Below are positions 23,657 through 35,576 of a stretch of DNA of 64,000 nucleotides, piece after piece. The notes under the pieces are model-generated. The model was not told the DNA's origin and searched no databases. It worked only from the letters and a program-made list of their open reading frames with translations. Every line of letters begins with the position of its first letter. Within the stretch, counting starts at the first letter, position 1. The stretch is from Hahella sp. CCB-MM4. Lineage in GTDB: Bacteria; Pseudomonadota; Gammaproteobacteria; Pseudomonadales; Oleiphilaceae. A program made the position numbers and the translations under genes. The DNA is taken from NCBI RefSeq assembly GCF_002260525.1, contig NZ_MRYI01000012.1, positions 117,395-181,394 on the forward strand, written 5' to 3'.

Positions 23657-24262
23657 TTAGCCTTGGGTGAAGGGCTGGTCTCCAACAAATACCATAAATA
23701 GCCCCAGGAAGATTAATACCCAGAACAATGCACCAATAATCAGCCAGATGATATTGGCGACGGTGAACTGGCTATTACTCTGGCCTTCGGGATCGTTACA
23801 GGCAACGTTGATTACCTGCTGAGCTTTGCAGAGTAGCCAGGCGCTCACCGGAAGGAGCGCCAGGGATACGAGGTCCGTAATTGGTGAACCGACGTCATTA
23901 TAGGAAAGACGATCGCATATACTGCCCACTATTGCTGCCAGGACGAAACCGGTAGCCAACGTTTGAGGGCTCCATAGTGCCTTTGAGCGTTCTCCAAGTG
24001 TTTCGTCTACTTTTCGAAACAGGGTATGAGTAAAGAATATGTAAAAGATCGATCTTGGTACCGGCCAAATACTAAGATTATTGGTGCGCTTGTATTGGGC
24101 CCAGTTCTTGTAAAACCAGATAAATCCATACAGACCCACTGTCCCAATATACAAAAATAAGAATTTCCGTATAGAAACGATGTAGAACTGGCTATTTGAG
24201 GACTTCTTTTCCTCACTGGTCAGGAGGTCTGTTTTTGGGGCTTCGTAAACATTGGTTTCCAC
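23657..24262 (-). CDS. hypothetical integral membrane protein (4 predicted TM helices)
   Basis: hydrophobic segments; no known motif; 99 bp downstream of the zinc-ribbon gene on the same strand. Confidence 0.5.
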   Translation of the reverse strand: METNVYEAPKTDLLTSEEKKSSNSQFYIVSIRKFLFLYIGTVGLYGFIWFYKNWAQYKRTNNLSIWPVPRSIFYIFFTHTLFRKVDETLGERSKALWSPQTLATGFVLAAIVGSICDRLSYNDVGSPITDLVSLALLPVSAWLLCKAQQVINVACNDPEGQSNSQFTVANIIWLIIGALFWVLIFLGLFMVFVGDQPFTQG

Positions 24263-24361: not shown

Positions 24362-24892
24362 CTAGCTATTTAGTAAAAGATACTGCCGTATCTCAACCTG
24401 TTTTTCGTGCTGTAACATCCAGCTTTTAAATTCCCGGACCTTTTCAAAATCCTCTTCACCGATACTCTCCTGGTAACGCTGGTTAACCCGGTTGATCTGT
24501 TGCTGTCTGCGCAACTCCCGTTGCCATTCCTCAGTGAAAATTTTGGGTAACTGACCCGCAAGTTCCAATTGCTTCAATAGTTTCCATTCGCCTTTGTCCA
24601 GCCATGCTTCATCACAATGGGTGCAAAGATCCAGTTTGTTCTGGGTGCTCAGGTCTATACGGAACTTGGTCATCAAACGTGAGCACTTCGGGCAGACCTT
24701 GGCGTGGTCGCTGTCTTCAGGGAGCACTTCCACTTCGACTTTTTCAACAGGTTCGTTCTGTTGCTGCACCCAATGGCGGTAATTCAGCAATGGCAGCAGA
24801 GCGCCTTCGCACTTCGGGCAACTGGCGGCCAGAAGATTCTCTTCCAATAAACGGGGTTCCAGGGTATAGCCTGGGCATTGTGGGCAGTGCAT
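24362..24892 (-). CDS. double zinc-ribbon protein (two CxxC...CxxC modules, zf-TFIIB-like) with a charged C-terminal helical tail
   Basis: CPQC...CPKC and CPKC...CTHC pairs; last gene of the minus-strand cluster. Confidence 0.6.
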   Translation of the reverse strand: MHCPQCPGYTLEPRLLEENLLAASCPKCEGALLPLLNYRHWVQQQNEPVEKVEVEVLPEDSDHAKVCPKCSRLMTKFRIDLSTQNKLDLCTHCDEAWLDKGEWKLLKQLELAGQLPKIFTEEWQRELRRQQQINRVNQRYQESIGEEDFEKVREFKSWMLQHEKQVEIRQYLLLNS

Positions 24893-24909
24893 TTTGATTA
24901 CTCCTGTTG

Positions 24910-25476
24910 CTATCTGATTCTGGCAGATTGTTTTCTAAATACGGTTGTCAGCCATGCGGCACCTATACCTGAAAGTGCTCCGAATAAATGGGCTTCAAAA
25001 GAAACCCGGGGATCATTGGGGAGAACCCCATAAATCATCCCTCCATAGAGAAACACAACGATCAGGGCGATAAATATATTCAATGCGCTACGGTCAAACC
25101 AGGCTAACGCGATACTCAGGCTCCAGAGGCCAAAAATCCAGCCGCTGGCACCAATGTGGATTGAGGGGCGGCCGAAAAACCATATCAGCAGGCCGCTGAA
25201 GGTAATGATAAAGAAGCTGCTCCAGATATAAAGCTTCAATGACCTGAGCAGGCAGAGCCAGCTGAAAATCGCAAAGCCCACCAGGTTGTTGAATAGATGA
25301 TCGAACCCACCATGCAGGAATGGTGCGGCATATATACCTGGAAGACTGCTCAGCACATGAGGCCTGATGCCGTATCGCAACAACTGGTAGTTCATCAGTA
25401 TGTTGGTCAAATGTACCACGATCATGAGAACGGCCAGCCACAGGATGATTTTGGTGCGATACCATAACTTATTCAT
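24910..25476 (-). CDS. rhomboid family intramembrane serine protease
   Basis: 6 TM helices; GASGWIFGL catalytic Ser motif and a downstream His (AHLFGALSG). Confidence 0.85.
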   Translation of the reverse strand: MNKLWYRTKIILWLAVLMIVVHLTNILMNYQLLRYGIRPHVLSSLPGIYAAPFLHGGFDHLFNNLVGFAIFSWLCLLRSLKLYIWSSFFIITFSGLLIWFFGRPSIHIGASGWIFGLWSLSIALAWFDRSALNIFIALIVVFLYGGMIYGVLPNDPRVSFEAHLFGALSGIGAAWLTTVFRKQSARIR

Positions 25477-25527
25477 CGGAGTCGCCGGCCTGTTCTTCTC
25501 TCTATTTCTTCTCTATCTGGCTTTACT

Positions 25528-28500
25528 TCAATCATGTTTCCTGGTGCGTTTGATTTCCTCTTCCAGATTCTTTAGCTGTCGTGAAATATCCTGCATTTTT
25601 TCCTGGGTTCGCAGATCGATATCAATCTTCTTATCCATGCTATGTACCAACGGATAGAGGCTGTTCTGCCAAGTATCGGCCAGGACCCGCAGGATGTTTT
25701 CCAAGCCGGGAATTGGAGGACTGTTTACTTCCACTTTAGGCTCTACCTTCAGCTTTGGTGTGCTCTTGCTGATGGTTTGCCCCAGGTTGTTAAGGGACTC
25801 AAGCAGTCCGCTCTGGAACTGTTGATTCGCCTGCCGGCTTTCCTGCTCACGTTGCTGTTGGAACTCAGCTGTAGCGGCCCGGTTTTCGGCCACGCTGTGA
25901 TTCAGATGCTGGATACCTTCGACGAGATCGGTCAGCTGGGCAACCACGCGGCCACCTACGTCTGCGTCACTGCCACCCATGGCTTTGTTGCGCAGGAAGT
26001 CCTTCTTGATTTGCTCCCACCGCTGCTGTTCTTCGGACGTCATGTTGCCCCGAAGTGCCGCCAGTTTGAGCAGGTTTTCTTCCGCTCCAGTGGTCAGTAG
26101 CTGGGCCTCACCAAGATAATGGTCGGAGATGAGCTGCATCAATTCATCGTCGTTCATCACCGACGAGACTTTCTCCGCCATCTTGTTCATGTTCCGGTAG
26201 CTGCCCTGCAGCTTGAAGGAAGGCTCGTTTCGATATCGGTCGTCCTGTGCGGCGGAGGCAATATACTGCTGGTTGATCTTGAGAATGACATCCTGGATCA
26301 CAAACAGTTTTTGTAATACGGACTTCATTTCATTCAACTCTGCACCACTGTATTGATGCTTGAGATCTGTCGCGGCAACCGGTTCACCTTTCGCCATGGC
26401 GATGATTTTGTATACATCGTCCATTTCCCTGGTTGCCAGAGGTGCCAATACAGAATTGGAGGTAAGGCTATTCTCGATATAACTCAGGCTGAACTGCTCG
26501 TCCATGCCGCCGAGTATATCGCCCAGGTTGTAGATATCTGCCCGGTTGGCCAGCATGTCGGGGACCTTGAAGGCTTCACCGGACTCCGTATACGGGTTAC
26601 CAGCCATGACCACACAGAACTTGCGTCCGCGCATATCGTAGGTTTTGGTCTTGCCTTTCCAGACCCCCTCTATGCGACGGGTGCCGTCACACAATGAGAT
26701 GAATTTCTGCAGGAATTCCGGGTGCGTATGCTGGATGTCATCCAGGTACAGCATGACATTGTTCCCCATTTCCAGTGCCAGATTGAGCTTTTGCAGCTCC
26801 TGGCGTGCCGTGGCGTTGGGGGCTTGGGCCGGATCCAGGGATAAAACGTCATGGCCGAGGGATGGACAGTTAATCTTCATGAAGATCAACCCAAGCCGGT
26901 TAGCCACATATTCCATCAGGGTGGTTTTACCGTAACCTGGAGGAGAGATCATCATGAGGAGGCCCATCAGGTCGGTTCGTTTGGACTCTCCAACGGTTCC
27001 CATCTGTTTAGCCAGGTTGTCACCGATAATCGGCAGATAAGATTCATTAATCAGGCGGTTGCGGACAAACGAACTCAGCGGACGAGGTTTGAACTCCTCC
27101 AATCGTAGGGCTGAACGTTCCTCTTCAATGATCGTCTGACGAAGGCGCAGATAGTTGTGGTAGCTGGGAACAACTTCCTGCTGATGTCGCTGAAGACGTA
27201 ACATGAATCCGTCCAGGGAGAAACGCAGTGCTTGCTGCTCCATTCCCGGATGATCGCCGAGCAGGCCGCTGACTTCCAGCTCCAGGTCTGTCTGGCTGAG
27301 GCGTCTCTCGATTCTTTGGCCTGCATTCATGAGCGCGACAGCTTCAGGAATATAGTGTTCCAAATGCCCAAGGTTCTTTTTTCCCACCATCGCTGACAGC
27401 CAGGCTTCGCCCAGTTTCCAGCGTTCTGCCACCTGGCCGTGCAGCTGCTCCTGTGCGGTCTGGTAGGTACGCCAGCTTTCTTCATCCAGTGAGCGTTTGA
27501 ACTCCTCTGCAAGATCCTGTGCGTATTTGCTGCTGATAAACTCCAGCCGTTCACGTCCCATTTCTGCCACAAGATAAGAGGCAGCCTGTTGTTGCTCCAG
27601 GTCTGAGAAGGGCAGGGGATAGCATTCCAGGAAACGTTGCAGATGTTCCAGGACTTCCTGTTCAAGGTGCTTGATAGCCCGAGTATCGGCAAAGGTGTTC
27701 TTAAGCAGCTGAGCAGACTGTGCTCTTTGCTGCCAGGTCGCCGCTTTTCCAGTGAGTTCTTCAATATTGCTGCGGCCGGGCAGGGCGGATTGAGTGCCCA
27801 GGGGCTTGATCAGGTTTGCCCAATAAATCTGGGCCAGGCCACGGGATTTTGGATTGAAGATCAATAGATCCGCACTGTCCATGGCCGGCAGTAATTGTTT
27901 CAGAATGAGGGCTGCATCATGATCATGAACACCCTTTTGATAACCCTCTTTGTAACGGGGAGCCGAAAAGGTTCGGATCAGCTTCAGGAGCTCCTCATCA
28001 TCAAGCAATGCCTGATTCAGGGTGTCCATATTAAAGTCATGTTGACCGGAATCTGCTGCCTCTATCAGTTGCATGGCAAGGTATTCCGAACGGTATACTT
28101 CACTGGTTTCGGACTCGAGAGTCATATCCCAGTATGGTTTCAGTGCTAAAAGCTCCGGCCGTTCAATCGATTCGAAGAAGTTGGTCCCGGTAAGGTGAAT
28201 GCTGAGTTTGTCTTCCCGGGGCAAAATGGTCAGGTCAAGTTCCTGGGTGTTCACACTGAATTTGTGTCTTGGCCCCAGCTTGATGACATTGCCACCCGCC
28301 TCGTAAATGTCGGATTTGTCCCGTAGCGAACGGGTGGACTGTTCACGGACAGACTTCAGACGGGATTCAACATCGTCTGCTTTAACATTACTGTCGAGCT
28401 CCCGTAGTTTTTCCACGGATTCACGAACTTTCTGAACCAGGGCATCCGAAGCAAAGAAGGTATTGAGTTCGTCTGCTTCGTTAAACTTCATTGCCCGGCG

Positions 28501-30873
28501 TTCAATGCTCGCCAGTATCCGGTTGGCGCCGTCAAGAATGGTCTGCGCCTTGCGCTGACGCTCATCCAGCAGCTGTTGCTTATGGGTCTCGAAAGTCTCA
28601 TAGACCTCCTCCCGTTTCTCCATGATATCGGTTAGAAACTGGTCGAAGTCACTGAACTGGCTTTCCAGCTCTTCCAGCTGGATTAACAGACGGGAGAGTT
28701 GCTCGTCACAACGCTCTGGCGTCGAGGCCATACTTAGAGCATTGGTAATGCTCTGGGAGAACAGCTTGAACTGCGCTCCAAACTGTGCGGTTGCCTCTTC
28801 AGAACCAAGGTTCTTACCTTTGTTGGACGCCTTGGCTTTGCTCTGGTTAAGCCGGGAGTAAATGTCAGATATGGAGTCAACAATCTGGGTGCGGACATTG
28901 GCGTCTGCTACCTTGAGAGTGGCCATCAACTCCGACAGCAGATCAAGACCCGAAGCCATGTTGTTGAATGTGTCGATCAGTGGGGACAACGTTGCCATGG
29001 AGGTTGCCGCTTCAACCTCACCATTGAGCTGGTCAATGCGTTCCAGGTAAGGATTAAAAGCATCTTCACCCTGGAGGAATTCCACGGTACGTTCACTCAG
29101 GTTCTCCTGGGCTTTCACCAATTGACCGTCGAGCTCGCTAATGCGGGTCGTGTCTATGTAACGGAGTTCCTTGATCGTGGTCAGATGGCCGCGTTGATGA
29201 CGAATCTTGTCCAGTGCGGCAACATACTCTTCTGCCGACTCCCAGTTTTCCGGGCGAATGGCAGTAAGTATCGACTTCTGTTCTTCCTCCGCTTTGGCCA
29301 TGGTTTTGGCCGATTGCTGGCGGATGGACTGAACCTTTTCAAACTCATCGATGACCAGCTCTGCGGTTGCAGAGATTTCCTTCAGCAAAGTGGCAATACT
29401 TGCCACTTCCTCTTCTTCTATCCAGAAGTGATGATCGAAGAATTTATTGGCATTGACACTGAGTTCTTCGTAAAGCCTGGCTGATACGGATTGGTTTTTG
29501 ATGATCCGGACCAGGCTGAACAGATCGGAAACCCCTCTGACCAGTTCGGAGTTGCCAATACGCCCGTAGAACGTCTTGGATGGCGGGATCTTGCTGGCAA
29601 ACTCTTCACTGACAAAAGGCGTTTGCCAGATTTGCATGGGATGAACCCGGGTCGGTTCTTCCTCCGCCGTGAAGATGACCAATGTGCCGTCGTCTGCCAA
29701 CGCATAACCGTGACCATAGATAGGGTTCTGAATCGCCTTCTCGATCAGGTTGTAGGCTAACAGGCAAACAACACCTTCTTCAGGCTGATAGAAAGAATAG
29801 AGAACATCCTCGCCATTGGGGGAGCGCATTTGCCGCTTAAATTTCAGACCCTTTACATCGCCGTCAAAGGTTTTGAATTCACCGGTCTGGAGATAGTAAC
29901 CACCGGGGAAAATGATGCCGTGGTCCTCTGGCAGCTGTACGCAGGATTGACCGATGGCATCGATACGTAGCACGTCCTGGGTCAGGGTGTTGAATATCAG
30001 ATAGCGCCACTGTTCTTCGCGGTAAGGGCGGATTTTCAGAAGTATCAGATCGCCCAGATGAGCGTAAAAAATACTGGCATCGTCGATGGATTGAGTATCA
30101 TCTTCTACGTCTTCGCGGTAGATACCAAGACCGTCATCGGTGTTGTTCTCCACCTTGATGGTCAGGTCCCCGTTAATGGTTTCCACAAAGACTTTGTCGA
30201 GAATATTGATGTGGGGATGCCGGCCATGCACGGTGTCTTCACGCACAGTGGCGGTCCACTCGAAATCGAAAGCGGGAGGTAGTTGAATGTCCCGCTCACC
30301 CCGATTATCGATATATTTGACCTGTTTTCCGTCCGGTGAGATTGACCAGCGGAATACGCGGATATCTTCCAGTCTTTCACCGATCTGGAAGCCGGCCAGA
30401 AGCTTTCCATCCTTGACGGTTAGCTCTACCAGCCGGGTATGTTTGTAATAGCGATAGAGTTCGTCGAAGTCGTTAACAAAACTTCGCTCAGACAGGAAGG
30501 AGTTGTCCAATACAACTTCTTCCATGGCTTGTTCTGCGCCTTCTCCCTGAAGGCGAAACAATGCGAAAACGTCCTCAACCTTGGTTTCCTTTTTAAGGCC
30601 CAGGTAGACATTGAAGCCGAATACAAGAAGCTCACCAACCTGCACCATATCCCTGGGGATACAGTTGTTTTCCGTGCGGACTCTCACCCGGGTAGTCACG
30701 CTCATTTCTGAGGTGCCAAACTCTTCAAGGCGTGCGTTGTTTAGGGTTTTTGCCTGGTCCTCAAGCTGTTTTCCCTGGTCGATCAAACGTTTTCGGATGA
30801 CTTCATAAGCACCACCTTCAGCTACCGCCGATTCGGTCAGGTCGGTGTCTTTGGTTTGATCCTGCTGTGCCAT
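25528..30873 (-). CDS. giant (~1780 aa) soluble protein with an embedded MoxR/AAA_5-type AAA+ ATPase module near residues 1300-1480; unknown N-terminal domain and a long alpha-helical middle region
   Basis: Walker A SPPGYGKTT (nt ~26920-26943), Walker B VMLYLDDIQ, sensor-1 VVMAGNP, then the GEAFKVPDMLANRADI signature of the NP..G..LP..L.DRF type; no TM helix; start taken at the AGGA-preceded ATG at 30873, with an alternative GTG at 30918. Confidence 0.7.
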   Translation of the reverse strand: MAQQDQTKDTDLTESAVAEGGAYEVIRKRLIDQGKQLEDQAKTLNNARLEEFGTSEMSVTTRVRVRTENNCIPRDMVQVGELLVFGFNVYLGLKKETKVEDVFALFRLQGEGAEQAMEEVVLDNSFLSERSFVNDFDELYRYYKHTRLVELTVKDGKLLAGFQIGERLEDIRVFRWSISPDGKQVKYIDNRGERDIQLPPAFDFEWTATVREDTVHGRHPHINILDKVFVETINGDLTIKVENNTDDGLGIYREDVEDDTQSIDDASIFYAHLGDLILLKIRPYREEQWRYLIFNTLTQDVLRIDAIGQSCVQLPEDHGIIFPGGYYLQTGEFKTFDGDVKGLKFKRQMRSPNGEDVLYSFYQPEEGVVCLLAYNLIEKAIQNPIYGHGYALADDGTLVIFTAEEEPTRVHPMQIWQTPFVSEEFASKIPPSKTFYGRIGNSELVRGVSDLFSLVRIIKNQSVSARLYEELSVNANKFFDHHFWIEEEEVASIATLLKEISATAELVIDEFEKVQSIRQQSAKTMAKAEEEQKSILTAIRPENWESAEEYVAALDKIRHQRGHLTTIKELRYIDTTRISELDGQLVKAQENLSERTVEFLQGEDAFNPYLERIDQLNGEVEAATSMATLSPLIDTFNNMASGLDLLSELMATLKVADANVRTQIVDSISDIYSRLNQSKAKASNKGKNLGSEEATAQFGAQFKLFSQSITNALSMASTPERCDEQLSRLLIQLEELESQFSDFDQFLTDIMEKREEVYETFETHKQQLLDERQRKAQTILDGANRILASIERRAMKFNEADELNTFFASDALVQKVRESVEKLRELDSNVKADDVESRLKSVREQSTRSLRDKSDIYEAGGNVIKLGPRHKFSVNTQELDLTILPREDKLSIHLTGTNFFESIERPELLALKPYWDMTLESETSEVYRSEYLAMQLIEAADSGQHDFNMDTLNQALLDDEELLKLIRTFSAPRYKEGYQKGVHDHDAALILKQLLPAMDSADLLIFNPKSRGLAQIYWANLIKPLGTQSALPGRSNIEELTGKAATWQQRAQSAQLLKNTFADTRAIKHLEQEVLEHLQRFLECYPLPFSDLEQQQAASYLVAEMGRERLEFISSKYAQDLAEEFKRSLDEESWRTYQTAQEQLHGQVAERWKLGEAWLSAMVGKKNLGHLEHYIPEAVALMNAGQRIERRLSQTDLELEVSGLLGDHPGMEQQALRFSLDGFMLRLQRHQQEVVPSYHNYLRLRQTIIEEERSALRLEEFKPRPLSSFVRNRLINESYLPIIGDNLAKQMGTVGESKRTDLMGLLMMISPPGYGKTTLMEYVANRLGLIFMKINCPSLGHDVLSLDPAQAPNATARQELQKLNLALEMGNNVMLYLDDIQHTHPEFLQKFISLCDGTRRIEGVWKGKTKTYDMRGRKFCVVMAGNPYTESGEAFKVPDMLANRADIYNLGDILGGMDEQFSLSYIENSLTSNSVLAPLATREMDDVYKIIAMAKGEPVAATDLKHQYSGAELNEMKSVLQKLFVIQDVILKINQQYIASAAQDDRYRNEPSFKLQGSYRNMNKMAEKVSSVMNDDELMQLISDHYLGEAQLLTTGAEENLLKLAALRGNMTSEEQQRWEQIKKDFLRNKAMGGSDADVGGRVVAQLTDLVEGIQHLNHSVAENRAATAEFQQQREQESRQANQQFQSGLLESLNNLGQTISKSTPKLKVEPKVEVNSPPIPGLENILRVLADTWQNSLYPLVHSMDKKIDIDLRTQEKMQDISRQLKNLEEEIKRTRKHD

Positions 30874-30981
30874 ATTGTTTTCCTGTAACCTGTCTTTACT
30901 CGAAAGCTTTTTACGCACCCGCTCACAACTGTTGTCAGCGAATCATCTTTACCCATTGCGATGGTTAAAGGTGGGATTAGG

Positions 30982-31004
30982 GGAGGCGAGCTGTACCCGC
31001 CTCC
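30982..31004 (-). other. intra-operon GC hairpin (GGAGGCG-N9-CGCCTCC) between the flotillin and giant ATPase genes
   Basis: read from the sequence; no U-tract. Confidence 0.35.
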
Positions 31005-31019
31005 GTATGCAACGATCTG

Positions 31020-32981
31020 TTAGTTCAGTGTTGCATCATCAGGTTTGGTGATATCGGCGGTTTTGGCTTGCAGGAATTTGTCCAGCAGCGCACTTACCGT
31101 ACCACTCTTGGATGCCAATCCATCAACGGCTTTACCGAGTGACAGAGACTTGGCAAATGTATCGAAGAAGTGCTCTTCTCCGCCCACGATGTCGATATGG
31201 GCTTTCTCAAGGGCTTTGCCGAGTACGTCAGCATTTTCGCGCGCGATTTCCTTACCTGCTTCAATAGAGGCCAGGGCTTCTTTGAAGGCAGTTTCCAGAG
31301 TCATACGGAATTCCTCGTGGTCGCGTGCCTTGTCGCTCATGCTGCCCATCGCCTGGAATTTGTCCACCAGACCGTCGGCTTCGGCTTTGAACTTCTCGCG
31401 GATAACATCGGCTTCGGCCATACCCACATCTTTCTGGGCTTTGGCTTCTGCGGTACCTTTGGCACTGATGACTTCTGCATCCACCAGACCGGTATCGCGC
31501 TGTGCTTTGGCACTGGCTTCGCCTTTAGCGGCGATGACTTTGGCTTCTGCAAGACCTTCTTTCTCCATGGCGTCAGCTTTGGCTTCCTGAACTTTCGCTT
31601 CTGCAAGGCCGTGTGCAGCTTCTTCGGCCTGAATACCTTCAGCCAGCTTCTTCTTACCATCAGCTTCTTTCGCAGCCGCTTCCAGTTCGGCTTGTGCCAT
31701 GGTGGTGATTTCAAGCGCCTTGAATTTCGCAGCCTGTTCTTGGGCTTCAGCGGCTTTCACCTGCTTGACTTTATCCTCTTCAGCCTGTGCTTCGGCAGAC
31801 AGTACCTGTACTTGCTTCAGGCGGTCAGCTTCAGATACTTCGCGTACTTCCTTGATGCGTTCTTCTTCGATCGCCACGGTTTTATCCACTGCAACACGTT
31901 CGCGGATAACGTTGGCAATCTCTTTCTTCTCAACTTCGACAGCTTTTTCAGCCTCGATCTTCTGAATATCAACCTCACGCTCACGCGAAACGATTTCCAG
32001 CTCGCGGGCACGAATGACTTTTTCTTCTTCAATCGCTACAGCACGAAGTCTGTTTTGCGCTGCCACTTCAACTTCACGTTGTTGGTTCTCACGCTGAACC
32101 GCCAGGTCCTGCTCAACGGTGATGGTGGTCGCTTCGGCCTTCTTGCGTTCTTCTTCCTGAACCTTCTTGGTTTCCGCTTCTTCCCGTGCGCGGATTGTCG
32201 CGATTTCACGCTCCTGGCGCGCTTCGGCATCAGCCTGCTGGCGATCCAACTCAAGCATGGCTTCAACGGTTTCCACGTTTTTCTTCTTGATCGCCAGCTC
32301 TTCGTCCCGCTCAAGAATATTGGTGCGAACGTTTTGTGCGGCCGTCAATTCTGTGATTTTCTTGATACCTTCGGAGTCCAGAATGTTGCTGGCATCGAGG
32401 GAAGCTTTTGGAGTTTGCTCCAGGTAATCAATTGCGACGTCTTCCAGTACATATCCGCTTAGATCGTCGCCAATGACTTCAATAATTTTCTCACGGAACT
32501 GAATGCGGTTTTCGAAAAGCTGCACGAAATCGATTTGCTTGCCGACCGTTTTCAAGGCCTCGGAGAACTTGGCAGCAAACAGATCGTGGACTGCTTCGCG
32601 ATCGGAAGCACGTGTAGCTCCTACTGTTTTGGCAACCCGTAGTACATCTGTCGCTGTTTCGTTAACTCGAAGATAGAAAGCAACGGTAATATCTGCACGC
32701 ATATTGTCTTTACAGATCAGCCCTTCCTTGCCGCGACGGTCCACTTCCAAGGTGATTAATGATATTTTCATTAATTCCTTTTTGTAGATAATCGGATAAA
32801 CCAAAGCACCCGTGAAATGTACTTTCGGTGTGGAACTCATGTCATTGACAATAAGAGCTGTGCCTTGCTCCACCTTGTAATAGAAGGCTTTAAACAGGCC
32901 AGCCAGGCCCATGATGACGACAAATACGATGCCAATGCCAAGTAATATTGGCACTATTACCGATAAGTCTGCTATGCCCAT
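31020..32981 (-). CDS. yqiK-like: flotillin family protein (SPFH/band-7 domain, YqiK-like) with a long Ala/Glu/Lys-rich repetitive coiled-coil C-terminal region
   Basis: N-terminal TM helix, SPFH domain, EA-rich flotillin repeats; adjacent NfeD-like gene as in E. coli yqiJK. Confidence 0.85.
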   Translation of the reverse strand: MGIADLSVIVPILLGIGIVFVVIMGLAGLFKAFYYKVEQGTALIVNDMSSTPKVHFTGALVYPIIYKKELMKISLITLEVDRRGKEGLICKDNMRADITVAFYLRVNETATDVLRVAKTVGATRASDREAVHDLFAAKFSEALKTVGKQIDFVQLFENRIQFREKIIEVIGDDLSGYVLEDVAIDYLEQTPKASLDASNILDSEGIKKITELTAAQNVRTNILERDEELAIKKKNVETVEAMLELDRQQADAEARQEREIATIRAREEAETKKVQEEERKKAEATTITVEQDLAVQRENQQREVEVAAQNRLRAVAIEEEKVIRARELEIVSREREVDIQKIEAEKAVEVEKKEIANVIRERVAVDKTVAIEEERIKEVREVSEADRLKQVQVLSAEAQAEEDKVKQVKAAEAQEQAAKFKALEITTMAQAELEAAAKEADGKKKLAEGIQAEEAAHGLAEAKVQEAKADAMEKEGLAEAKVIAAKGEASAKAQRDTGLVDAEVISAKGTAEAKAQKDVGMAEADVIREKFKAEADGLVDKFQAMGSMSDKARDHEEFRMTLETAFKEALASIEAGKEIARENADVLGKALEKAHIDIVGGEEHFFDTFAKSLSLGKAVDGLASKSGTVSALLDKFLQAKTADITKPDDATLN

Positions 32982-33058
32982 GATAAATACTCCTTTTTAA
33001 AAGACGGATGTCTTATTTTTTAGTTAATCGTTGATGGTTTGTTTGTAGTAGGCTCTTA

Positions 33059-33745
33059 TCAACCTTTGAACTCTTCTTCTGATATAACTCTGTAGACGTG
33101 TTGTTCCGATAGGTATTCCAGCAGGACCACCCGGTCACCTTTCTTGAATATGTCTTTGCCGGTTGAGCGAACTTTGAATATCAGGCCTGCACCTCCATCA
33201 TCAAGGGTGGCTTCACCGAAGTTATTATCTACCCGGGAGGTTCTTACTATTGCTGTTTGACCTAACACCTGCTTTAACGTGTCCTGATTTGCCCGGCGAA
33301 AGAGTGGGCGCAATGGGCGAATCACCACTCCTGTTATATAAGCGGAAATGTACAGTGCTCCGAATAGTACCGGGATTCCGGCTAAATAATGTAGTAGCCC
33401 ATCAGGTATCAGGCCAAATAAAAAATGAACGACAAAATAGCTGATGAACCAGCCGAATAGCGATAAAAAGGAAACGATAATAGTGACAGGCACACCAAAG
33501 AGACCGAACTTCAGCATAAGGCCAGCCAGTACATCGGGTCCTGTGAACTGAGTGTCATTCACTCCTAAGTCGCCATCAGGGTCGGGTATATCAAAATCAA
33601 GTATATCGAGATCTATCAAGCCCAGGATGGCAACAAGCCAAAAAAGTACGCATAGAGTAAGGAAAAAGGTAAAGATTACCGTCGGAAAAGAACTGATGTT
33701 CTGATAAAACGGATCCATTTTGTCGCTGAGTAAGATGGCAAACAC
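33059..33745 (-). CDS. yqiJ-like: NfeD-like / YqiJ family inner-membrane protein (TM helices plus a C-terminal OB-fold)
   Basis: multiple TM helices, then the C-terminal beta-rich tail GQTAIVRT...KGDRVVLLEY typical of NfeD; immediately upstream of the flotillin gene. Confidence 0.7.
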   Translation of the reverse strand: MFAILLSDKMDPFYQNISSFPTVIFTFFLTLCVLFWLVAILGLIDLDILDFDIPDPDGDLGVNDTQFTGPDVLAGLMLKFGLFGVPVTIIVSFLSLFGWFISYFVVHFLFGLIPDGLLHYLAGIPVLFGALYISAYITGVVIRPLRPLFRRANQDTLKQVLGQTAIVRTSRVDNNFGEATLDDGGAGLIFKVRSTGKDIFKKGDRVVLLEYLSEQHVYRVISEEEFKG

Positions 33746-33859
33746 TTAATATCTCCTCTACGAAGTGTGTCGTCCCATTCCTTTGGTGGTGGTCCAGGTT
33801 GCCAAATTCGAGTACTGCTCAAACTCCCCGTAATCCGGGGAGTTAACTACTCTCAGGAA

Positions 33860-34099
33860 TTACAAGCCAATCTCATTTTTGATTTCATTGAGCTTTTCAA
33901 GCATTGCTGCATCGATTTCGTGTGGTTTGACTTTCGAAATGATGTTGCGCAATACACGAATTTCATTCTGATCCACAACGCCATCCCGTTTGGCAATATC
34001 AAAGATAGCTCCTAATTCGGAGGCATCCAGTTTTCCGTCATTGGAAAAACAGTTGATCGACCGGAAGGTCATTTCCAGATAGTCGCGGCTTTCCGCCAT
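33860..34099 (-). CDS. small (79 aa) TerB-like / tellurite-resistance-type domain protein
   Basis: DGKLDASELGAIFDIAKRDGVVDQNEIRVL resembles the TerB-family helical motif; low certainty. Confidence 0.35.
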   Translation of the reverse strand: MAESRDYLEMTFRSINCFSNDGKLDASELGAIFDIAKRDGVVDQNEIRVLRNIISKVKPHEIDAAMLEKLNEIKNEIGL

Positions 34100-34162
34100 A
34101 AAGTATCTCCTATTTGTATAATTGGCCTGCCGGGTTATGTTGTTGGCCTGGCAGGCCGGGTG

Positions 34163-34855
34163 TTACTTACTCGATTTCTGCTTCAGGCGAGCCAGAACAT
34201 CATTGGCGCTGTGGGGGTTGCTCACAATGCCTGCTTTCTCCAGTTTGGTTTTCAGGTCGTCCTCAGTTGTCTCTTTGGATAGCTCTTCTGCGGCCGACAT
34301 TTTTGCAGCTGTATGCGTTTGTTTCTCTTTAATGCGCTCCAGTGAATCCATGGCTGTTCTCAGCTTGGAGTTAGAGCCGGCATATCGAGCAGCGACGGCC
34401 TTTTGCGCCCGCTGGACACTTTCAGTCGCTTTCACCGTATCCACCTGTTGCTTCAGGCGCTTGATATTGCCCTCTGCCTGCTGAATTGAGGCACGTAGTT
34501 TGTCTGCGTTTTCTTTGAAGCCTGCTGCGCTGTCTTCTTCCGTTTGTAGCTGGTTTTCAAAGGTCGCAATTTTTTCTGCGATTTCCAGGGCCAGGGTTTC
34601 ATCTTCCTTGTTCAGAGCTTGGACGGCATAACCTTCATACTCCCCGATCTGCTCCTTGAGCTTGCTGCATTTTTCCTCTGCCACTTTCTGCTGAGCAATT
34701 ATGGCTACCAGGCTTTCCTTTGATTGCTTCAGCTCTTCTGAGGCGTCGCGCACTTCCTGGTCGAGAATGCGTAGTGCCTGACTATCTACTATTGCTTCAC
34801 CAGCTTCATTAACTCCGCCACGTAGAGCGGTCATCATCTTGGCCCAAACGTTCAT
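34163..34855 (-). CDS. PspA/IM30 family protein (YjfJ-like; ESCRT-III superfamily)
   Basis: the N-terminus MNVWAKMMTALRGGVNEAGEAIVDSQALRILDQEVRDA follows the PspA pattern; ~225-aa all-helical coiled-coil protein. Confidence 0.75.
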   Translation of the reverse strand: MNVWAKMMTALRGGVNEAGEAIVDSQALRILDQEVRDASEELKQSKESLVAIIAQQKVAEEKCSKLKEQIGEYEGYAVQALNKEDETLALEIAEKIATFENQLQTEEDSAAGFKENADKLRASIQQAEGNIKRLKQQVDTVKATESVQRAQKAVAARYAGSNSKLRTAMDSLERIKEKQTHTAAKMSAAEELSKETTEDDLKTKLEKAGIVSNPHSANDVLARLKQKSSK

Positions 34856-34858
34856 TGC

Positions 34859-35518
34859 TTAAACCTCCTCGGTAACGGCTACAGACAGGTATTCGCTATA
34901 TGCCTCTGCTGCCTGGATAACATTGGATGCTAGAACTTCAATCTCAAACACAATGTTCGACAAAATTGATGTGGAGCTCAGTGCACCAAACATGTGGTAG
35001 TAGTCTTCGTCATCTTCCACCTTGTCCAGGCTGATGGTGGAAAGGGGAAAGTATTTATGTGTTCTGAGCACGGCTTCGTTGAAGCCTGCAACGTCGACAA
35101 CTTCCGACAACGGCCAGAGAACGGATTCCGCAATGATCTGTTCGCCGGCAACAGTTACAAATATCGGCAGCTCGCCATACTCTCTCATCAGTATCAGGAG
35201 GGAAGGCTCCGCTCCTTCAATCAGCTCAATCGTGGCTCTTTCGGATTTAAACAGTTCTTCTTCGGAAAGCGCCTTGAATAGGCTTTGTGTAGTCCACAAT
35301 GTGACGTTTTCCATAATCACTTCTCCTTCGCTTAGCAGCTTGATCTGGTTGGAAAAATCACCGGACTGGCGTAACAGCCTTTCGATTGTTGCCAGTTTTT
35401 TTGAGTTTTCCGGAAGTATCCAGATCTCTTTTTTAATCAGCCCTTGTTCGCGCATGCGACGGCGATATTCGCGCTGATAGTGTGCGGATGTTTTCTTGTT
35501 CATGAGGTGACTATGCAT
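34859..35518 (-). CDS. DUF2170 (YjfI)-like protein with a ~65-aa Arg/Lys-rich N-terminal extension
   Basis: the C-terminal ~150 aa (PIFVTVAGEQIIAESVLWP...FGALSS...EIEVL) fits DUF2170, partner of YjfJ/PspA-like proteins; N-terminus MNKKTSAHYQREYRRRMREQG is basic. Confidence 0.45.
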   Translation of the reverse strand: MHSHLMNKKTSAHYQREYRRRMREQGLIKKEIWILPENSKKLATIERLLRQSGDFSNQIKLLSEGEVIMENVTLWTTQSLFKALSEEELFKSERATIELIEGAEPSLLILMREYGELPIFVTVAGEQIIAESVLWPLSEVVDVAGFNEAVLRTHKYFPLSTISLDKVEDDEDYYHMFGALSSTSILSNIVFEIEVLASNVIQAAEAYSEYLSVAVTEEV

Positions 35519-35541
35519 CAGATTTGTGAGGGTGTCAATAA

Positions 35542-35576
35542 ATTACATGTAACATTGGATTCGTGTTACATGTAAT
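35542..35576. promoter_or_regulatory. perfect 13-bp inverted repeat ATTACATGTAACA-N9-TGTTACATGTAAT 24-58 bp upstream of the cluster's first start codon; candidate operator
   Basis: read from the sequence; each half contains the self-palindrome TTACATGTAA. Confidence 0.5.

What the first reader, a model, noticed from the sequence alone, without database searches (positions are those of the whole stretch)
24362..35576. Eight-gene minus-strand cluster combining PspA/IM30, flotillin, NfeD, a giant MoxR-type AAA+ protein, rhomboid and a zinc-ribbon protein: candidate undescribed membrane-remodelling or stress module
Eight co-oriented, tightly spaced genes run from 35518 down to 24362, with gaps of 3, 63, 114, 77, ~100, 51 and 17 bp. 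In order they are: a DUF2170/YjfI-like protein with a basic N-terminal extension, a PspA/IM30 (YjfJ-like, ESCRT-III superfamily) protein, a 79-aa TerB-like protein, a YqiJ/NfeD-like membrane protein, a YqiK-type flotillin, a ~1780-aa soluble protein carrying one MoxR/AAA_5-like ATPase module, a rhomboid protease and a double zinc-ribbon protein. In E. coli, yjfIJ (DUF2170 + PspA-like) and yqiJK (NfeD + flotillin) are two separate operons. Here they are fused and extended with a giant AAA+ protein and an intramembrane protease. PspA/Vipp1 are established bacterial ESCRT-III homologues, and eukaryotic ESCRT-III polymers are disassembled by the AAA+ ATPase Vps4. A dedicated giant AAA+ partner for a PspA/flotillin scaffold would be a new arrangement. 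The idea that it remodels or recycles PspA or flotillin polymers, possibly as a membrane-repair or phage/envelope-stress response, is my inference.
Basis: partly seen in the sequence, partly recalled or inferred. Interest (0 to 1): 0.88.

Follow-up and report, generated by a model that had tools for sequence, protein, structure and literature searches.

The report
Hahella variant of bac membrane-stress operon
The eight-gene cluster is real and strongly conserved, but it is the Hahella version of an already described PspA–flotillin–giant-ATPase ("bac") operon; the new points are three extra conserved parts (rhomboid protease, zinc-ribbon protein, TerB-like protein) and an apparently overlooked self-repression switch on its first gene.

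Summary
Observation confirmed: eight co-oriented minus-strand genes lie at 35518–24362 with the stated gaps and mostly the stated identities. The window matches Hahella sp. CCB-MM4.

The claim "undescribed" does not hold. The core is DUF2170/BacA, YjfJ-type PspA, YqiJ/short NfeD, YqiK-type flotillin and a giant β-propeller/coiled-coil/AAA+ protein. This is the P. aeruginosa bacABCDEF operon (Macé 2008; Wallart 2024) and an operon class described by Ravi et al. (2024).

In 80 related genome loci:
- The invariant core is YqiJ–flotillin–giant (63/64).
- The BacA–PspA dyad is frequent but separable (55–57/64).
- Rhomboid (41/65), PLD (32/65), Zn-ribbon (21/65) and the 79-aa TerB-like gene (22/65) are mobile but retained accessories.

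I did not find the following in the papers I searched:
- Gene 1 carries a near-invariant N-terminal MazE-like (PF11455-type) extension.
- Its presence tracks a palindromic operator, T[TC]ACATGT[AG]A ×2–3. All 104 copies in 1.7 Mb lie upstream of gene 1.
- The operator is interleaved with a σ70-type promoter that appears to give a leaderless transcript.
- Standalone PF11455 antitoxins in metagenomes sit behind the same operator.

The Vps4-like idea for the giant ATPase is not specifically supported. Verdict: a known kind with a new variant, and moderate interest.

The parts
35543..35575 (-). Two copies of the 10-bp palindromic operator TTACATGTAA (35566-35575 and 35543-35552), centres 23 bp apart, immediately upstream of the -35 hexamer
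   Evidence: These are the only two matches in the 64-kb window. Across the 80 genome loci (1.70 Mb) all 104 matches lie within 120 nt upstream of gene A, in 50/51 loci; about 5 are expected from base composition.
35510..35538 (-). Sigma-70-type promoter: -35 TTGACA (35538-35533), 17-nt spacer, -10 CATAGT (35515-35510), then 6 nt to ATG 35503. No Shine-Dalgarno, so the transcript is predicted to be leaderless.
   Evidence: 10/12 consensus match. The same geometry is found in 41/52 loci, with a -10-to-ATG distance of 6-7 nt in 37 of them. An SD-like tetramer occurs in 1/52 for gene A against 47/57 for the PspA gene.
34859..35503 (-). Gene 1, BacA orthologue (214 aa from ATG 35503; the ORF extends to 35518). 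It has an N-terminal ~45-aa basic MazE-like (PF11455-type) putative DNA-binding module and a C-terminal DUF2170/CesT-like domain.
   Evidence: NF050185 BacA 315.8 bits. PDB 8q8o E 3e-43 over residues 73-212 only. YjfI E 2e-22. The extension is near-invariant. MazE-like is sub-threshold in 17/30 orthologues. hhalign to operator-linked PF11455 proteins gives P 2.5e-4.
34163..34855 (-). Gene 2, YjfJ-type PspA/IM30 (BacB orthologue), 230 aa
   Evidence: PF04012 E 1e-47. EcYjfJ 35% identity, E 8e-40; EcPspA E 0.19.
34122..34159 (-). GC-rich inverted repeat in the PspA/gene-3 intergenic region. No T-run follows on the coding strand, so it may be an mRNA-processing or stabilising hairpin.
   Evidence: not followed up
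33860..34099 (-). Gene 3, 79-aa soluble TerB-like/EF-hand-like protein. It is a mobile accessory gene of the module.
   Evidence: TerB in 11/13 orthologues (best E 5.8e-5) and EF-hand_7 in 10/13. Present in 22/65 loci at varying positions.
33059..33745 (-). Gene 4, YqiJ/short-NfeD-like membrane protein (BacC orthologue), about 3 TM segments plus a C-terminal beta-rich domain
   Evidence: Profile vs EcYqiJ E 1.6e-10, hhalign 87%. TM segments. Present in 63/64 loci.
31020..32981 (-). Gene 5, YqiK-type flotillin (BacD/PaFlo3 orthologue), with an N-terminal TM segment, an SPFH region and a long E/A/K-rich coiled coil
   Evidence: Profile vs EcYqiK E 3e-54, hhalign 99.9%. One N-terminal TM. Present in 63/64 loci.
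25528..30873 (-). Gene 6, giant soluble protein (BacE orthologue; 1781 aa from ATG 30873, ORF to 30918). Order of domains: N-terminal helix, beta-propeller (DUF3686), long helical bundles including DUF7902, one AAA+ module (Walker A 1326-1333, Walker B D-D 1393-1394), C-terminal coiled coil.
24910..25476 (-). Gene 7, minimal rhomboid intramembrane serine protease, predicted active
   Evidence: PF01694 E 4e-16. H60, N64, G109, S111, G112, H163 and G166 are invariant in 44/44. Present in 41/65 loci, and retained at different positions.
24362..24892 (-). Gene 8, soluble protein with two TFIIB-type zinc ribbons and a helical C-terminal region
   Evidence: PF13453 33.5 bits, two stretches. The first-ribbon cysteines and the WLDxGEW motif are conserved. 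Present in 21/65 loci.

Best explanation
The locus is the Hahella sp. CCB-MM4 orthologue, in an extended variant, of the bac / 'CesT-PspA-band7-YqiJ-AAA+' envelope-stress operon. I read it as three layers.

(1) A self-contained regulatory switch. Gene 1 (BacA) is a fusion of a MazE-like (PF11455-type) DNA-binding module and a CesT-like partner-binding domain. It binds the TTACATGTAA operators that flank or overlap a sigma-70 promoter and represses the whole operon, which starts with a leaderless bacA message. Its CesT-like domain binds the YjfJ-type PspA (gene 2). Recruitment of PspA to a damaged membrane would therefore change BacA's hold on the operator. This is a partner switch analogous to PspA-PspF, and the direction of the effect is inferred.

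(2) A membrane scaffold with its dedicated ATPase. YqiJ/short-NfeD and YqiK-type flotillin form an SPFH assembly on the cytoplasmic face of the inner membrane. The giant beta-propeller/coiled-coil/AAA+ protein is the obligate partner of that scaffold. It probably docks through the propeller and coiled coils and uses slow ATP turnover (Walker B D-D, no aromatic pore loop) to assemble, remodel or gate the scaffold and what it encloses, rather than threading substrates.

(3) Interchangeable membrane-active effectors and adaptors. These are an active rhomboid protease here, a PLD/HKD hydrolase in P. aeruginosa, and often both. A double zinc-ribbon protein and a TerB-like small protein are also part of this layer.

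Shown computationally: gene identities, orthology to bac, the synteny statistics, the operator/extension co-occurrence and the promoter geometry. Inferred: DNA binding by BacA, the partner switch, and what the ATPase acts on.
For: Orthology to bac:
- NCBIfam BacA equivalog above cutoff.
- PDB 8q8o E 3e-43.
- Collinear APJFG loci in Pseudomonas, including P. paraeruginosa.
- The published RT-PCR operon, and 6-13-fold accumulation of BacB-F in a bacA mutant (PMC10948618).
- The operon class described in PMC11237479.

Switch:
- All 104 operator copies lie upstream of gene A, with about 5 expected by chance.
- Extension and operator both present in 50 loci and both absent in 6, with one variant operator (Fisher p 2e-7).
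- E. coli yjfI has neither.
- Operators flank the -35 hexamer or lie within the spacer.
- Leaderless geometry and absence of an SD sequence.
- Four bona fide PF11455 antitoxins (E 1e-23 to 4e-30) sit 12-18 nt behind the same GTTACATGTAAC x2 operator in metagenomes, and they align in register with the extension (hhalign P 2.5e-4; shuffled controls score at most 17.0 against 24.2).
- An independent AlphaFold2 prediction of a BacA-BacB complex, p 0.98 (PMC13092808).

Scaffold and ATPase:
- J and F are each present in 63/64 loci. JFG occurs without AP in at least 6 loci, and AP is inverted in 4.
- Beta-propeller, helical bundles and an AAA+ fold.
- Walker A, sensor-1 N and R1459 invariant, and Walker B D-D invariant, in 81/81.
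- No TM segment in the giant protein.

Effectors:
- Rhomboid catalytic residues invariant in 44/44.
- Only 4/56 fully flanked loci lack all of rhomboid, PLD and Zn-ribbon. The rhomboid is kept despite changing position.
Against: - No experiment here or in the literature shows BacA binding DNA. The Pfam MazE-like match is sub-threshold in every orthologue (best E 0.016), and the PDB profile search found no DNA-binding homologue.
- The published work proposes sigma-54 dependence and a chaperone-type mode of regulation.
- The bacA mutant was a transposon insertion, so read-through could contribute to the increase in downstream proteins.
- The operator pair is not unique to bac loci. Only 6 of 80 sampled metagenome hits are bac-type.
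- The 80 genome loci are the closest relatives (at least 53% identity) and share ancestry, so counts and p-values overstate independence.
- Both AlphaFold models are of moderate quality (pLDDT 62.7 and 71.3), and the AAA+ clade is unresolved.
- Nothing tested here shows what the ATPase, the rhomboid or the PLD acts on.
- The P. aeruginosa flotillin mutant has only a mild phenotype (about 20% less biofilm; PMC13086221).
Confidence: 0.6

Rival explanations
1. One reading: the giant AAA+ protein is a Vps4-like disassemblase that recycles PspA (ESCRT-III-type) polymers, and flotillin/NfeD serve only as a platform.
For: PspA and DUF2170 accompany the giant gene in 55-57/64 loci. PspA is an ESCRT-III homologue, and Ravi et al. 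draw the Vps4 analogy for PspA-AAA+ pairs in general. PspA homologues encoded elsewhere in the genome could serve the JFG-only loci, as Ravi et al. suggest.
Against: JFG occurs without an adjacent PspA in at least 6 fully flanked loci, and the AP dyad is inverted or divergent in 4. No MIT or Vps4_C domain was found. The pore-loop-1 region has no aromatic residue, and the Walker B catalytic Glu is replaced by an invariant Asp. The fold search does not favour the classical AAA clade of Vps4.
Confidence: 0.2
2. The published regulatory model is right: the operon is transcribed from a sigma-54 promoter, and BacA regulates only by chaperone-like protein-protein contacts. On this view the palindromes bind some other factor.
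For: Mace 2008 and Wallart 2024 report a putative RpoN site upstream of bacA. BacA has a T3SS-chaperone fold. The same palindrome pair occurs next to many unrelated genes in metagenomes.
Against: No sigma-54-like GG-N10-GC site was found around the P. paraeruginosa gene or upstream of gene A in any of the 52 sequences scanned. The crystallised BacA chain (146 aa) aligns to residues 73-212 of the window protein and so lacks the N-terminal extension. A site 'upstream' of the short ORF may therefore lie inside the real coding sequence. A sigma-70 -35/-10 pair with fixed spacing to the ATG is conserved across genera. Extension and operator co-occur strictly.
Confidence: 0.12
3. The module is an anti-phage or anti-antagonism defence system in which membrane damage triggers the ATPase and the protease or lipase effectors.
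For: It combines enzymatic 'effector' genes (rhomboid, PLD) that vary between genomes, a large ATPase with sensor-like repeats, and a TerB-like protein. PspA was first found as a phage-shock protein.
Against: No PADLOC model matches any of the eight proteins beyond coiled-coil noise. The module lies among housekeeping genes and keeps collinear order across many genera, which is unlike a typical defence island. The reported P. aeruginosa phenotypes concern biofilm, swarming, rhamnolipid, osmotic induction and virulence.
Confidence: 0.08
4. Database annotation taken at face value: the giant protein is a 'DNA repair ATPase', and its position next to membrane genes is incidental.
For: Pfam describes DUF3686 as 'ATPase involved in DNA repair', and NCBI and UniRef names follow this.
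Against: DUF3686 folds as a beta-propeller. No nuclease, helicase or DNA-binding domain was found. The gene is adjacent to flotillin and YqiJ in 63/64 loci and is co-transcribed and co-regulated with them in P. aeruginosa. No paper in the library mentions DUF3686.
Confidence: 0.02

Closest known systems
P. aeruginosa bacABCDEF operon (PA3732-PA3727 / PA14_16140-16200; Mace 2008, Wallart 2024)
   Same: Orthologous BacA (NCBIfam equivalog, PDB 8q8o), YjfJ-type PspA (BacB), YqiJ/short NfeD (BacC), flotillin (BacD/PaFlo3) and giant ATPase (BacE), in the same order. The same operator and promoter lie upstream of gene A in P. paraeruginosa.
   Different: Hahella has no PLD (bacF). Instead it has a rhomboid and a double Zn-ribbon gene after the ATPase, and a 79-aa TerB-like gene between PspA and YqiJ. 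Many other Pseudomonas species carry APJFtGRD, so the P. aeruginosa form is itself a reduced variant.
[quoted passage not shown]
   Same: Exactly this core and the same domain reading of the giant protein. They also note abbreviated flotillin-YqiJ(-AAA+) operons without PspA, which matches my JFG-only loci.
   Different: Rhomboid and TerB do not occur in the main text or in the one supplement file held, and the zinc ribbons mentioned there belong to other proteins (YdjG, YdjL, PspC). The paper does not describe the N-terminal DNA-binding extension of the DUF2170 protein, or the operator.
E. coli yjfIJ and yqiJK
   Same: YjfI (E 2e-22), YjfJ (E 8e-40), YqiJ (profile E 1.6e-10) and YqiK (profile E 3e-54) are the homologues of genes 1, 2, 4 and 5.
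   Different: They are at two separate loci in E. coli. yjfIJ sits in a polyamine-type context (yjfKLMC). There is no giant ATPase, rhomboid or Zn-ribbon gene alongside. YjfI lacks the N-terminal extension, and the locus lacks the operator.
B. subtilis pspA-ydjGHI (samGHI)
   Same: A PspA is encoded with an SPFH/flotillin-family protein and a protein carrying two zinc ribbons. The SPFH protein links PspA to the membrane (PMC8581546 abstract; PMC11237479; PMC9239133).
   Different: No AAA+ ATPase, DUF2170 protein or rhomboid. The zinc ribbons are part of the membrane protein YdjG rather than a soluble protein.
SPFH scaffolds coupled to AAA+ and intramembrane proteases: HflK/C-FtsH, and the mitochondrial SLP2-PARL-YME1L hub (from my own knowledge; HflK/C-FtsH is cited within PMC13086221)
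   Same: An SPFH assembly is genetically or physically coupled to an AAA+ machine. In the mitochondrial hub a rhomboid protease is also present.
   Different: Here the AAA+ protein is soluble, has no protease domain, and carries a beta-propeller and very long coiled coils. Physical association is untested. This is an analogy, not homology of the ATPase.
ESCRT-III/Vps4 and E. coli PspA-PspF
   Same: A PspA/ESCRT-III-family polymer is encoded with an AAA+ protein. PspA-dependent negative feedback on its own operon is a plausible shared logic.
   Different: No MIT domain, no aromatic pore loop and no Walker B Glu. The regulator here is not an AAA+ enhancer-binding protein but a small MazE-like/CesT-like fusion acting at a sigma-70 promoter.
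PF11455 MazE-like antitoxins
   Same: They share the R-x-x-LR-x-x-GL-(basic/hydrophobic)-x-x-W-(V/I)-P-(D/E) core and the same GTTACATGTAAC x2 operator directly upstream of the gene.
   Different: They are standalone ~70-aa proteins with SD-led translation. The BacA module is divergent (sub-threshold to the Pfam model) and is fused to a CesT-like domain.

Membership tests
BacA (NCBIfam NF050185, equivalog) | Whole-protein score at or above the curated cutoff (300 bits) over the full 206-position model, including the N-terminal region | tested here: met
   315.8 bits, residues 6-213 aligned to model positions 1-204
DUF2170/YjfI, CesT-like fold | PF09938 above the gathering score, plus similarity to the solved BacA structure | tested here: met
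   178 bits against a cutoff of 27; 8q8o E 3e-43; EcYjfI E 2e-22
PspA/IM30, YjfJ subfamily | PF04012 over the full length, and closer to YjfJ than to canonical PspA | tested here: met
   162.9 bits against a cutoff of 33.9; EcYjfJ E 8e-40 against EcPspA E 0.19
Flotillin (YqiK type, SPFH superfamily) | N-terminal membrane anchor, SPFH/band-7 domain and flotillin coiled coil, homologous to YqiK | tested here: met
   Orthologue profile vs EcYqiK E 3e-54, hhalign 99.9% over about 400 columns; one N-terminal TM. The Pfam Band_7 model itself is not hit by the single sequence.
YqiJ / short NfeD | Multi-TM N-terminal part (YqiJ_N) and a C-terminal NfeD-type beta domain, encoded next to an SPFH gene | tested here: met
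   Profile vs EcYqiJ E 1.6e-10, hhalign 87%; about 3 TM segments; adjacent to flotillin in 63/64 loci. The single-sequence Pfam YqiJ_N hit is only E 0.13. PA14_16160 is called short NfeD in PMC13086221.
MoxR-type AAA+ (AAA_5 / clade 7) | Best match to MoxR/AAA_5 models, helix-2 and pre-sensor-1 inserts, and usually a VWA partner | tested here: inconclusive
   PF00004 (E 5e-7), AAA_22 and AAA_5 (E 1e-5) all hit weakly. Foldseek hits mix MCM and NorQ/CbbQ with ClpA, RuvB and Lon at low TM-scores on a model of pLDDT 62.7. No VWA protein was found in the module.
Vps4-like ESCRT-III disassemblase | N-terminal MIT domain, classical AAA clade with an aromatic pore loop 1, Walker B D-E, and a Vps4 C-terminal domain | tested here: not met
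   No MIT or Vps4_C hit. The pore-loop region INCPSLGHDVLSLDP has no aromatic residue, and Walker B is D-D in 81/81.
Rhomboid intramembrane serine protease (PF01694) | Model above the gathering score; TM2 H-x3-N, TM4 GxSG serine and TM6 histidine present | tested here: met
   59.9 bits against a cutoff of 22.6; H60, N64, G109, S111, G112 and H163 invariant in 44/44
Rhombosortase (TIGR03902) | Score at or above the curated cutoff of 84 bits | tested here: not met
   33.3 bits
TerB domain (PF05099) | Score at or above the gathering threshold (24.4 bits) | tested here: inconclusive
   The window protein scores 16.5 bits (E 0.011). 11/13 orthologues hit TerB (best E 5.8e-5), and 10/13 also hit EF-hand_7. 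The PDB profile search gives only weak EF-hand matches.
TFIIB-type zinc ribbon (PF13453) | CxxC...CxxC ribbon above the gathering score | tested here: met
   33.5 bits against a cutoff of 22, two stretches; the first-ribbon cysteines and the WLDxGEW motif are conserved
MazE-like antitoxin DNA-binding domain (PF11455), for the N-terminal extension of gene 1 | Score at or above the gathering threshold (22 bits); autoregulatory binding to a palindrome upstream of its own gene | tested here: inconclusive
   Sub-threshold in all orthologues (17/30 hit; best E 0.016, 15.6 bits). In-register hhalign to four true PF11455 proteins gives P 2.5e-4, above the shuffled controls. These four lie behind the same operator. 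DNA binding cannot be tested with these tools.
Sigma-54-dependent psp-type promoter | A TGGCAC-N5-TTGCW (-24/-12) element upstream of the first gene, and an enhancer-binding protein | tested here: not met
   No such element within 300 nt upstream of gene A in 52 sequences, nor at L064 5500-6000. No PspF-like gene is in the module. The published figure with the proposed site could not be inspected.
Known anti-phage defence systems (PADLOC 2.0) | Any component matching a defence-system model | tested here: not met
   Only coiled-coil noise for the PspA protein

The most novel reading that the evidence does not exclude
BacA-type proteins are a previously unrecognised class of one-polypeptide 'chaperone-repressors'. 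An antitoxin-derived (PF11455-like) DNA-binding module reads TTACATGTAA operators at a leaderless sigma-70 promoter. A fused CesT-like domain reports the availability of free PspA-like protein. On this reading the published sigma-54/chaperone model for the P. aeruginosa bac operon, built on a truncated ORF, would need revision. In addition, the invariant YqiJ-flotillin-giant-ATPase triad, with its interchangeable rhomboid or PLD, would be a bacterial SPFH 'hub' in which a new kind of soluble beta-propeller/coiled-coil AAA+ protein gates or remodels a flotillin cage for intramembrane proteolysis or lipid hydrolysis.
Probability: 0.3. Interest if true: 0.7.

Novelty: new variant of a known kind. 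Interest (0 to 1): 0.45.

Why it matters
The bac/PspA-flotillin-AAA+ operon is widespread; the giant protein alone has more than 6,700 homologues. In P. aeruginosa it is linked to biofilm, swarming, rhamnolipid production and virulence, yet no component has a known mechanism.

Three results make it more tractable:
1. There is a concrete, testable regulatory mechanism. It comprises an operator sequence, a candidate repressor domain that is missing from the crystallised construct and from the PAO1-style short annotation, a sigma-70 leaderless promoter, and a predicted PspA partner.
2. The giant ATPase belongs first of all to the flotillin/YqiJ pair, not to PspA. This redirects interaction experiments.
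3. An active rhomboid, a PLD, a zinc-ribbon protein and a TerB-like protein are recurrent members. This points to proteolysis or lipid hydrolysis inside a flotillin domain as the output.

It does not overturn anything major, and the module itself is not new.

Tried and rejected
- Single-sequence Pfam, NCBIfam and PDB searches failed for the flotillin and YqiJ proteins. Orthologue profiles compared with the E. coli proteins settled both.
- I recalled that the eLife 2022 'Arc' paper covered this locus. It does not: PA3729 is only a background protein in an immunoprecipitation table.
- Searches for a sigma-54 element found nothing.
- PADLOC screening was negative.
- The AAA+ clade could not be assigned from the AlphaFold2 model (pLDDT 62.7). 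The Foldseek hits are generic AAA+.
- A profile of the BacA extension against PDB sequences found no DNA-binding homologue.
- I expected the operator pair to be specific to bac loci in metagenomes. It is not: 6/80 are bac-type and 4/80 are MazE-like, and the rest are unassigned. This weakened the 'unique operator' idea but produced the PF11455 link.
- No intrinsic terminator was found after gene 8 or between genes on the coding strand.
- 'DUF3686' and the operator sequence gave no relevant literature. No paper in the library links a rhomboid to this operon.
- I did not use the representative-protein search or the remaining homologue searches. The closest 80 loci together with Ravi et al. already answered the synteny question.

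Full report
OBSERVATION. The eight minus-strand ORFs are present exactly as described, with intergenic gaps of 3, 63, 114, 77, 101, 51 and 17 bp. The giant protein is 100% identical to a Hahella sp. CCB-MM4 protein annotated as a 1781-aa 'DNA repair protein' starting at ATG 30873. The nearest genome locus is H. ganghwensis at 90% identity.

GENE IDENTITIES.
- Gene 1 is a DUF2170 protein. It passes the NCBIfam equivalog for the Pseudomonas biofilm regulator BacA (315.8 bits, cutoff 300) and matches the solved BacA structure 8q8o (E 3e-43).
- Gene 2 is a PspA/IM30 protein of the YjfJ type. It is 35% identical to E. coli YjfJ (E 8e-40), against E 0.19 to E. coli PspA.
- Pfam and PDB sequence searches did not recognise genes 4 and 5. 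Profiles built from their orthologues match E. coli YqiJ (E 1.6e-10) and YqiK flotillin (E 3e-54; hhalign 99.9%).
- Gene 6 has DUF3686, DUF7902 and one AAA module, and has no hydrophobic segment.
- Gene 7 is a rhomboid whose catalytic H/N/GxSG/H residues are invariant in 44 of 44 orthologues.
- Gene 8 has two TFIIB-type zinc ribbons.
- Gene 3 (79 aa) is sub-threshold for TerB and EF-hand models in the window. TerB is hit in 11 of 13 orthologues, best E 5.8e-5.

IS IT A UNIT? I fetched 80 genome loci encoding relatives of the giant protein (53-90% identity; mostly Gammaproteobacteria, including many Pseudomonas) and located homologues of all eight proteins and of the flanking ORFs.
- Among the 64 loci with at least 6 kb of upstream flank, flotillin and YqiJ are each present in 63, PspA in 57 and DUF2170 in 55.
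- Among the 65 loci with at least 2.5 kb downstream, a rhomboid is present in 41 (directly after the giant gene in 35), a PLD/HKD gene in 32, the Zn-ribbon gene in 21 and the 79-aa gene in 22.
- Only 4 of 56 fully flanked loci lack all three of rhomboid, PLD and Zn-ribbon.
- The accessory genes change position but are retained. The rhomboid lies after the ATPase, divergently upstream, or between PspA and YqiJ. The 79-aa gene lies between PspA and YqiJ in Hahella, and between flotillin and the ATPase in Pseudomonas.
- The window's flanking genes (chemoreceptor, solute-binding protein, LysR, glycine dehydrogenase) are not conserved next to the module.

WHAT IS ALREADY KNOWN. The core is not new.
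- Macé et al. 2008 named PA3732-PA3729 the biofilm-associated cluster, showed that PA3731 is PspA-like and osmotically induced, and found that its loss impairs biofilm, swarming, rhamnolipid production and virulence.
- Wallart et al. 2024 showed by RT-PCR a six-gene operon, bacABCDEF. They found 6-13-fold accumulation of BacB-F in a bacA transposon mutant and solved a T3SS-chaperone-like BacA structure.
- Ravi et al. [quoted passage not shown] They note abbreviated flotillin-YqiJ(-AAA+) operons without PspA, and they invoke the Snf7/Vps4 analogy for PspA-AAA+ pairs.
- A 2026 study names PA14_16180 PaFlo3 and PA14_16160 a short NfeD, and finds only a mild biofilm defect for the flotillin mutant.
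- In P. paraeruginosa the gene after the ATPase (bacF) is indeed a PLD.
- 'Rhomboid' and 'TerB' do not occur in the Ravi main text or in its one held supplement file. No paper in the library links a rhomboid to this operon.

THE GIANT PROTEIN.
- AlphaFold2 models of residues 16-720 (pLDDT 71.3) and 1197-1796 (pLDDT 62.7) show an N-terminal helix, a ~360-residue beta-propeller, long helical bundles, an AAA+ core and a C-terminal coiled coil. The propeller's Foldseek hits are DCAF1 WD40, prolyl-oligopeptidase and TolB propellers.
- The AAA+ hits mix MCM and NorQ/CbbQ (MoxR-type) with ClpA, RuvB and Lon at low TM-scores. 'MoxR-type' therefore stays unproven.
- Across 81 sequences, Walker A (GYGKTT), the sensor-1 Asn and Arg1459 are invariant. 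Walker B is always D-D with no catalytic Glu, and the pore-loop-1 region has no aromatic residue.
- Together with the synteny, this argues that the ATPase is primarily the partner of the flotillin/YqiJ scaffold and is more a remodelling or switch ATPase than a Vps4-like threading motor. The relevant synteny is that JFG is invariant, that AP is absent in at least 6 fully flanked loci, and that AP is inverted in 4. This last step is inference.
- The database name 'DNA repair ATPase' has no support in domain content or context.

A REGULATORY SWITCH I DID NOT FIND DESCRIBED. Directly upstream of gene 1 lie two copies of the perfect palindrome TTACATGTAA (35575-35566 and 35552-35543). They abut a good sigma-70 promoter, TTGACA-17-CATAGT, which ends 6 nt before ATG 35503.

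The operator:
- In the 80 genome loci (1.70 Mb), T[TC]ACATGT[AG]A occurs 104 times. Every occurrence is within 120 nt upstream of gene A, in 50 of 51 loci and at about 22-bp spacing. About 5 are expected from composition.

The promoter:
- The geometry is conserved across genera: an operator, the -35 hexamer, a 17-nt spacer that usually contains an operator, the -10 hexamer, then 6-7 nt to the ATG.
- An SD-like tetramer precedes gene A in 1 of 52 loci, against 47 of 57 for the PspA gene. This implies a leaderless bacA message.
- I found no sigma-54-like element.

The extension:
- Gene A carries a near-invariant N-terminal module, SSAHYQRE[FY]RxRLREQGLVKKEVWIxPE.
- The module gives sub-threshold MazE-like (PF11455) hits in 17 of 30 orthologues.
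- Presence of this extension and of the operator coincide. Both are present in 50 loci and both absent in 6, with one locus carrying a variant palindrome (Fisher p 2e-7, not corrected for phylogeny).
- E. coli YjfI has neither.

An independent test in metagenomes:
- I scanned metagenomes for the operator pair alone. Of 80 loci, 6 are bac-type.
- Four carry a standalone ~70-aa protein 12-18 nt after a GTTACATGTAAC x2 pair. All four are bona fide PF11455 antitoxins (E 2e-23 to 4e-30).
- These four align in register with the BacA extension (hhalign P 2.5e-4, score 24.2; 20 column-shuffled controls scored at most 17.0).
- The same DNA-binding family thus sits behind the same operator in two unrelated contexts. 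The remaining hits are unassigned, so the palindrome is not unique to this system.

Relation to the published BacA work:
- The deposited BacA chain (146 aa) aligns only to residues 73-212 of the window protein. PA3732 was treated as a 16-kDa protein.
- In P. paraeruginosa the long ORF is 206 aa, and the short form would start at Met60.
- The BacA paper does not mention DNA binding or a palindrome.
- A 2026 study independently predicts a BacA-BacB complex with AlphaFold2, p 0.98.

MOST LIKELY MECHANISM. BacA is an autorepressor whose CesT-like domain senses the PspA-like BacB. This is a partner switch by analogy with PspA-PspF and with T3SS chaperone-regulators. When derepressed, the operon produces three things. 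The first is the PspA-like protein. The second is a YqiJ/flotillin scaffold with its dedicated giant ATPase. The third is a set of membrane-active effectors and adaptors: rhomboid, Zn-ribbon and TerB-like proteins here, and a PLD in P. aeruginosa. An SPFH scaffold coupled to an AAA+ machine and a rhomboid recalls HflK/C-FtsH and the mitochondrial SLP2-PARL-YME1L hub (my own knowledge), but only as an analogy.

Shown computationally: orthology, synteny, operator/extension coupling and promoter geometry. Inferred: DNA binding, the direction of the switch, and the substrates of the ATPase, rhomboid and PLD.

CAVEATS.
- The 80 loci are close relatives and are not independent.
- The published sigma-54 figure could not be inspected.
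- The bacA mutant was a transposon insertion, so polar read-through is possible.
- Both structure models are of moderate quality.
- No known defence-system model matches, but a defence role is not excluded.

VERDICT. The locus is a new variant (APtJFGRZ) of a known operon kind. The analysis yields a specific, testable regulatory model and a clearer view of which parts are core and which are accessory.

Noticed in passing
window 35510-35575; L001-L072 upstream of gene A: A conserved TTACATGTAA operator array is interleaved with a sigma-70 promoter, and bacA appears to start leaderless (no SD; -10 hexamer 6-7 nt from the ATG). The most likely start of gene 1 is ATG 35503, not 35518.
   Followed up: yes
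L082 1487-1517, L083 1028-1058, L108 1578-1612, L134 1805-1838: Standalone PF11455 MazE-like antitoxin genes in metagenomes sit 12-18 nt behind the same GTTACATGTAAC x2 operator pair. This suggests TTACATGTAA is a recognition sequence of that DNA-binding family. I did not examine their downstream (toxin?) genes.
   Followed up: partly
L084-L161 (about 66 loci): Most metagenome contigs carrying the TTACATGTAA-N10-15-TTACATGTAA pair (mean GC 41%) have neither a bacA-type nor a MazE-like gene beside it. Small recurrent groups include an aldo-keto-reductase-like ORF and a glycosyltransferase-like ORF. What binds these sites is unknown.
   Followed up: no
window 26734-26739 (codons 1393-1394 of the ORF from 30918): Walker B of the giant ATPase is D-D instead of D-E in all 81 sequences examined. 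No aromatic residue occupies the pore-loop-1 region. This hints at slow hydrolysis or switch-like behaviour.
   Followed up: partly
L064 5755-6375 (P. paraeruginosa): The long bacA ORF is 206 aa. The 146-aa protein used in the literature corresponds to a start at Met60 and lacks the conserved basic extension. A sigma-54 site placed 'upstream' of the short ORF may lie inside the coding sequence.
   Followed up: partly
window 34122-34159: A long GC-rich inverted repeat (16 pairs as scanned) lies between the PspA gene and the 79-aa gene. No T-run follows on the coding strand. It may set the PspA:downstream stoichiometry through mRNA processing or stability.
   Followed up: no
window 23657-24262 (minus strand): A 201-aa ORF lies 99 bp downstream of gene 8. 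It has no Pfam hit and no counterpart in the two most closely related Hahella loci. It is either strain-specific or not a gene.
   Followed up: no
L060 around 5305 (Pseudomonas sp. OHS18); L057: The translated N-terminal extension of bacA contains an in-frame stop or frameshift in L060, and there is a stop just upstream in L057. This may be a natural loss of the putative DNA-binding module, or a sequencing or ORF-calling artefact.
   Followed up: no
L027 upstream of gene A: This is the one locus with the extension but no canonical operator. It carries the variant palindromes TTACAGGTAA and TTACCTGTAA at the same place, which may reflect co-variation between the operator and its binding protein.
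   Followed up: no
window 25528-30918 and database names: The family (more than 6,700 members) is named 'DNA repair ATPase/protein' in NCBI and UniRef, following the Pfam DUF3686 description. Domain content and context give no support for that name.
   Followed up: partly
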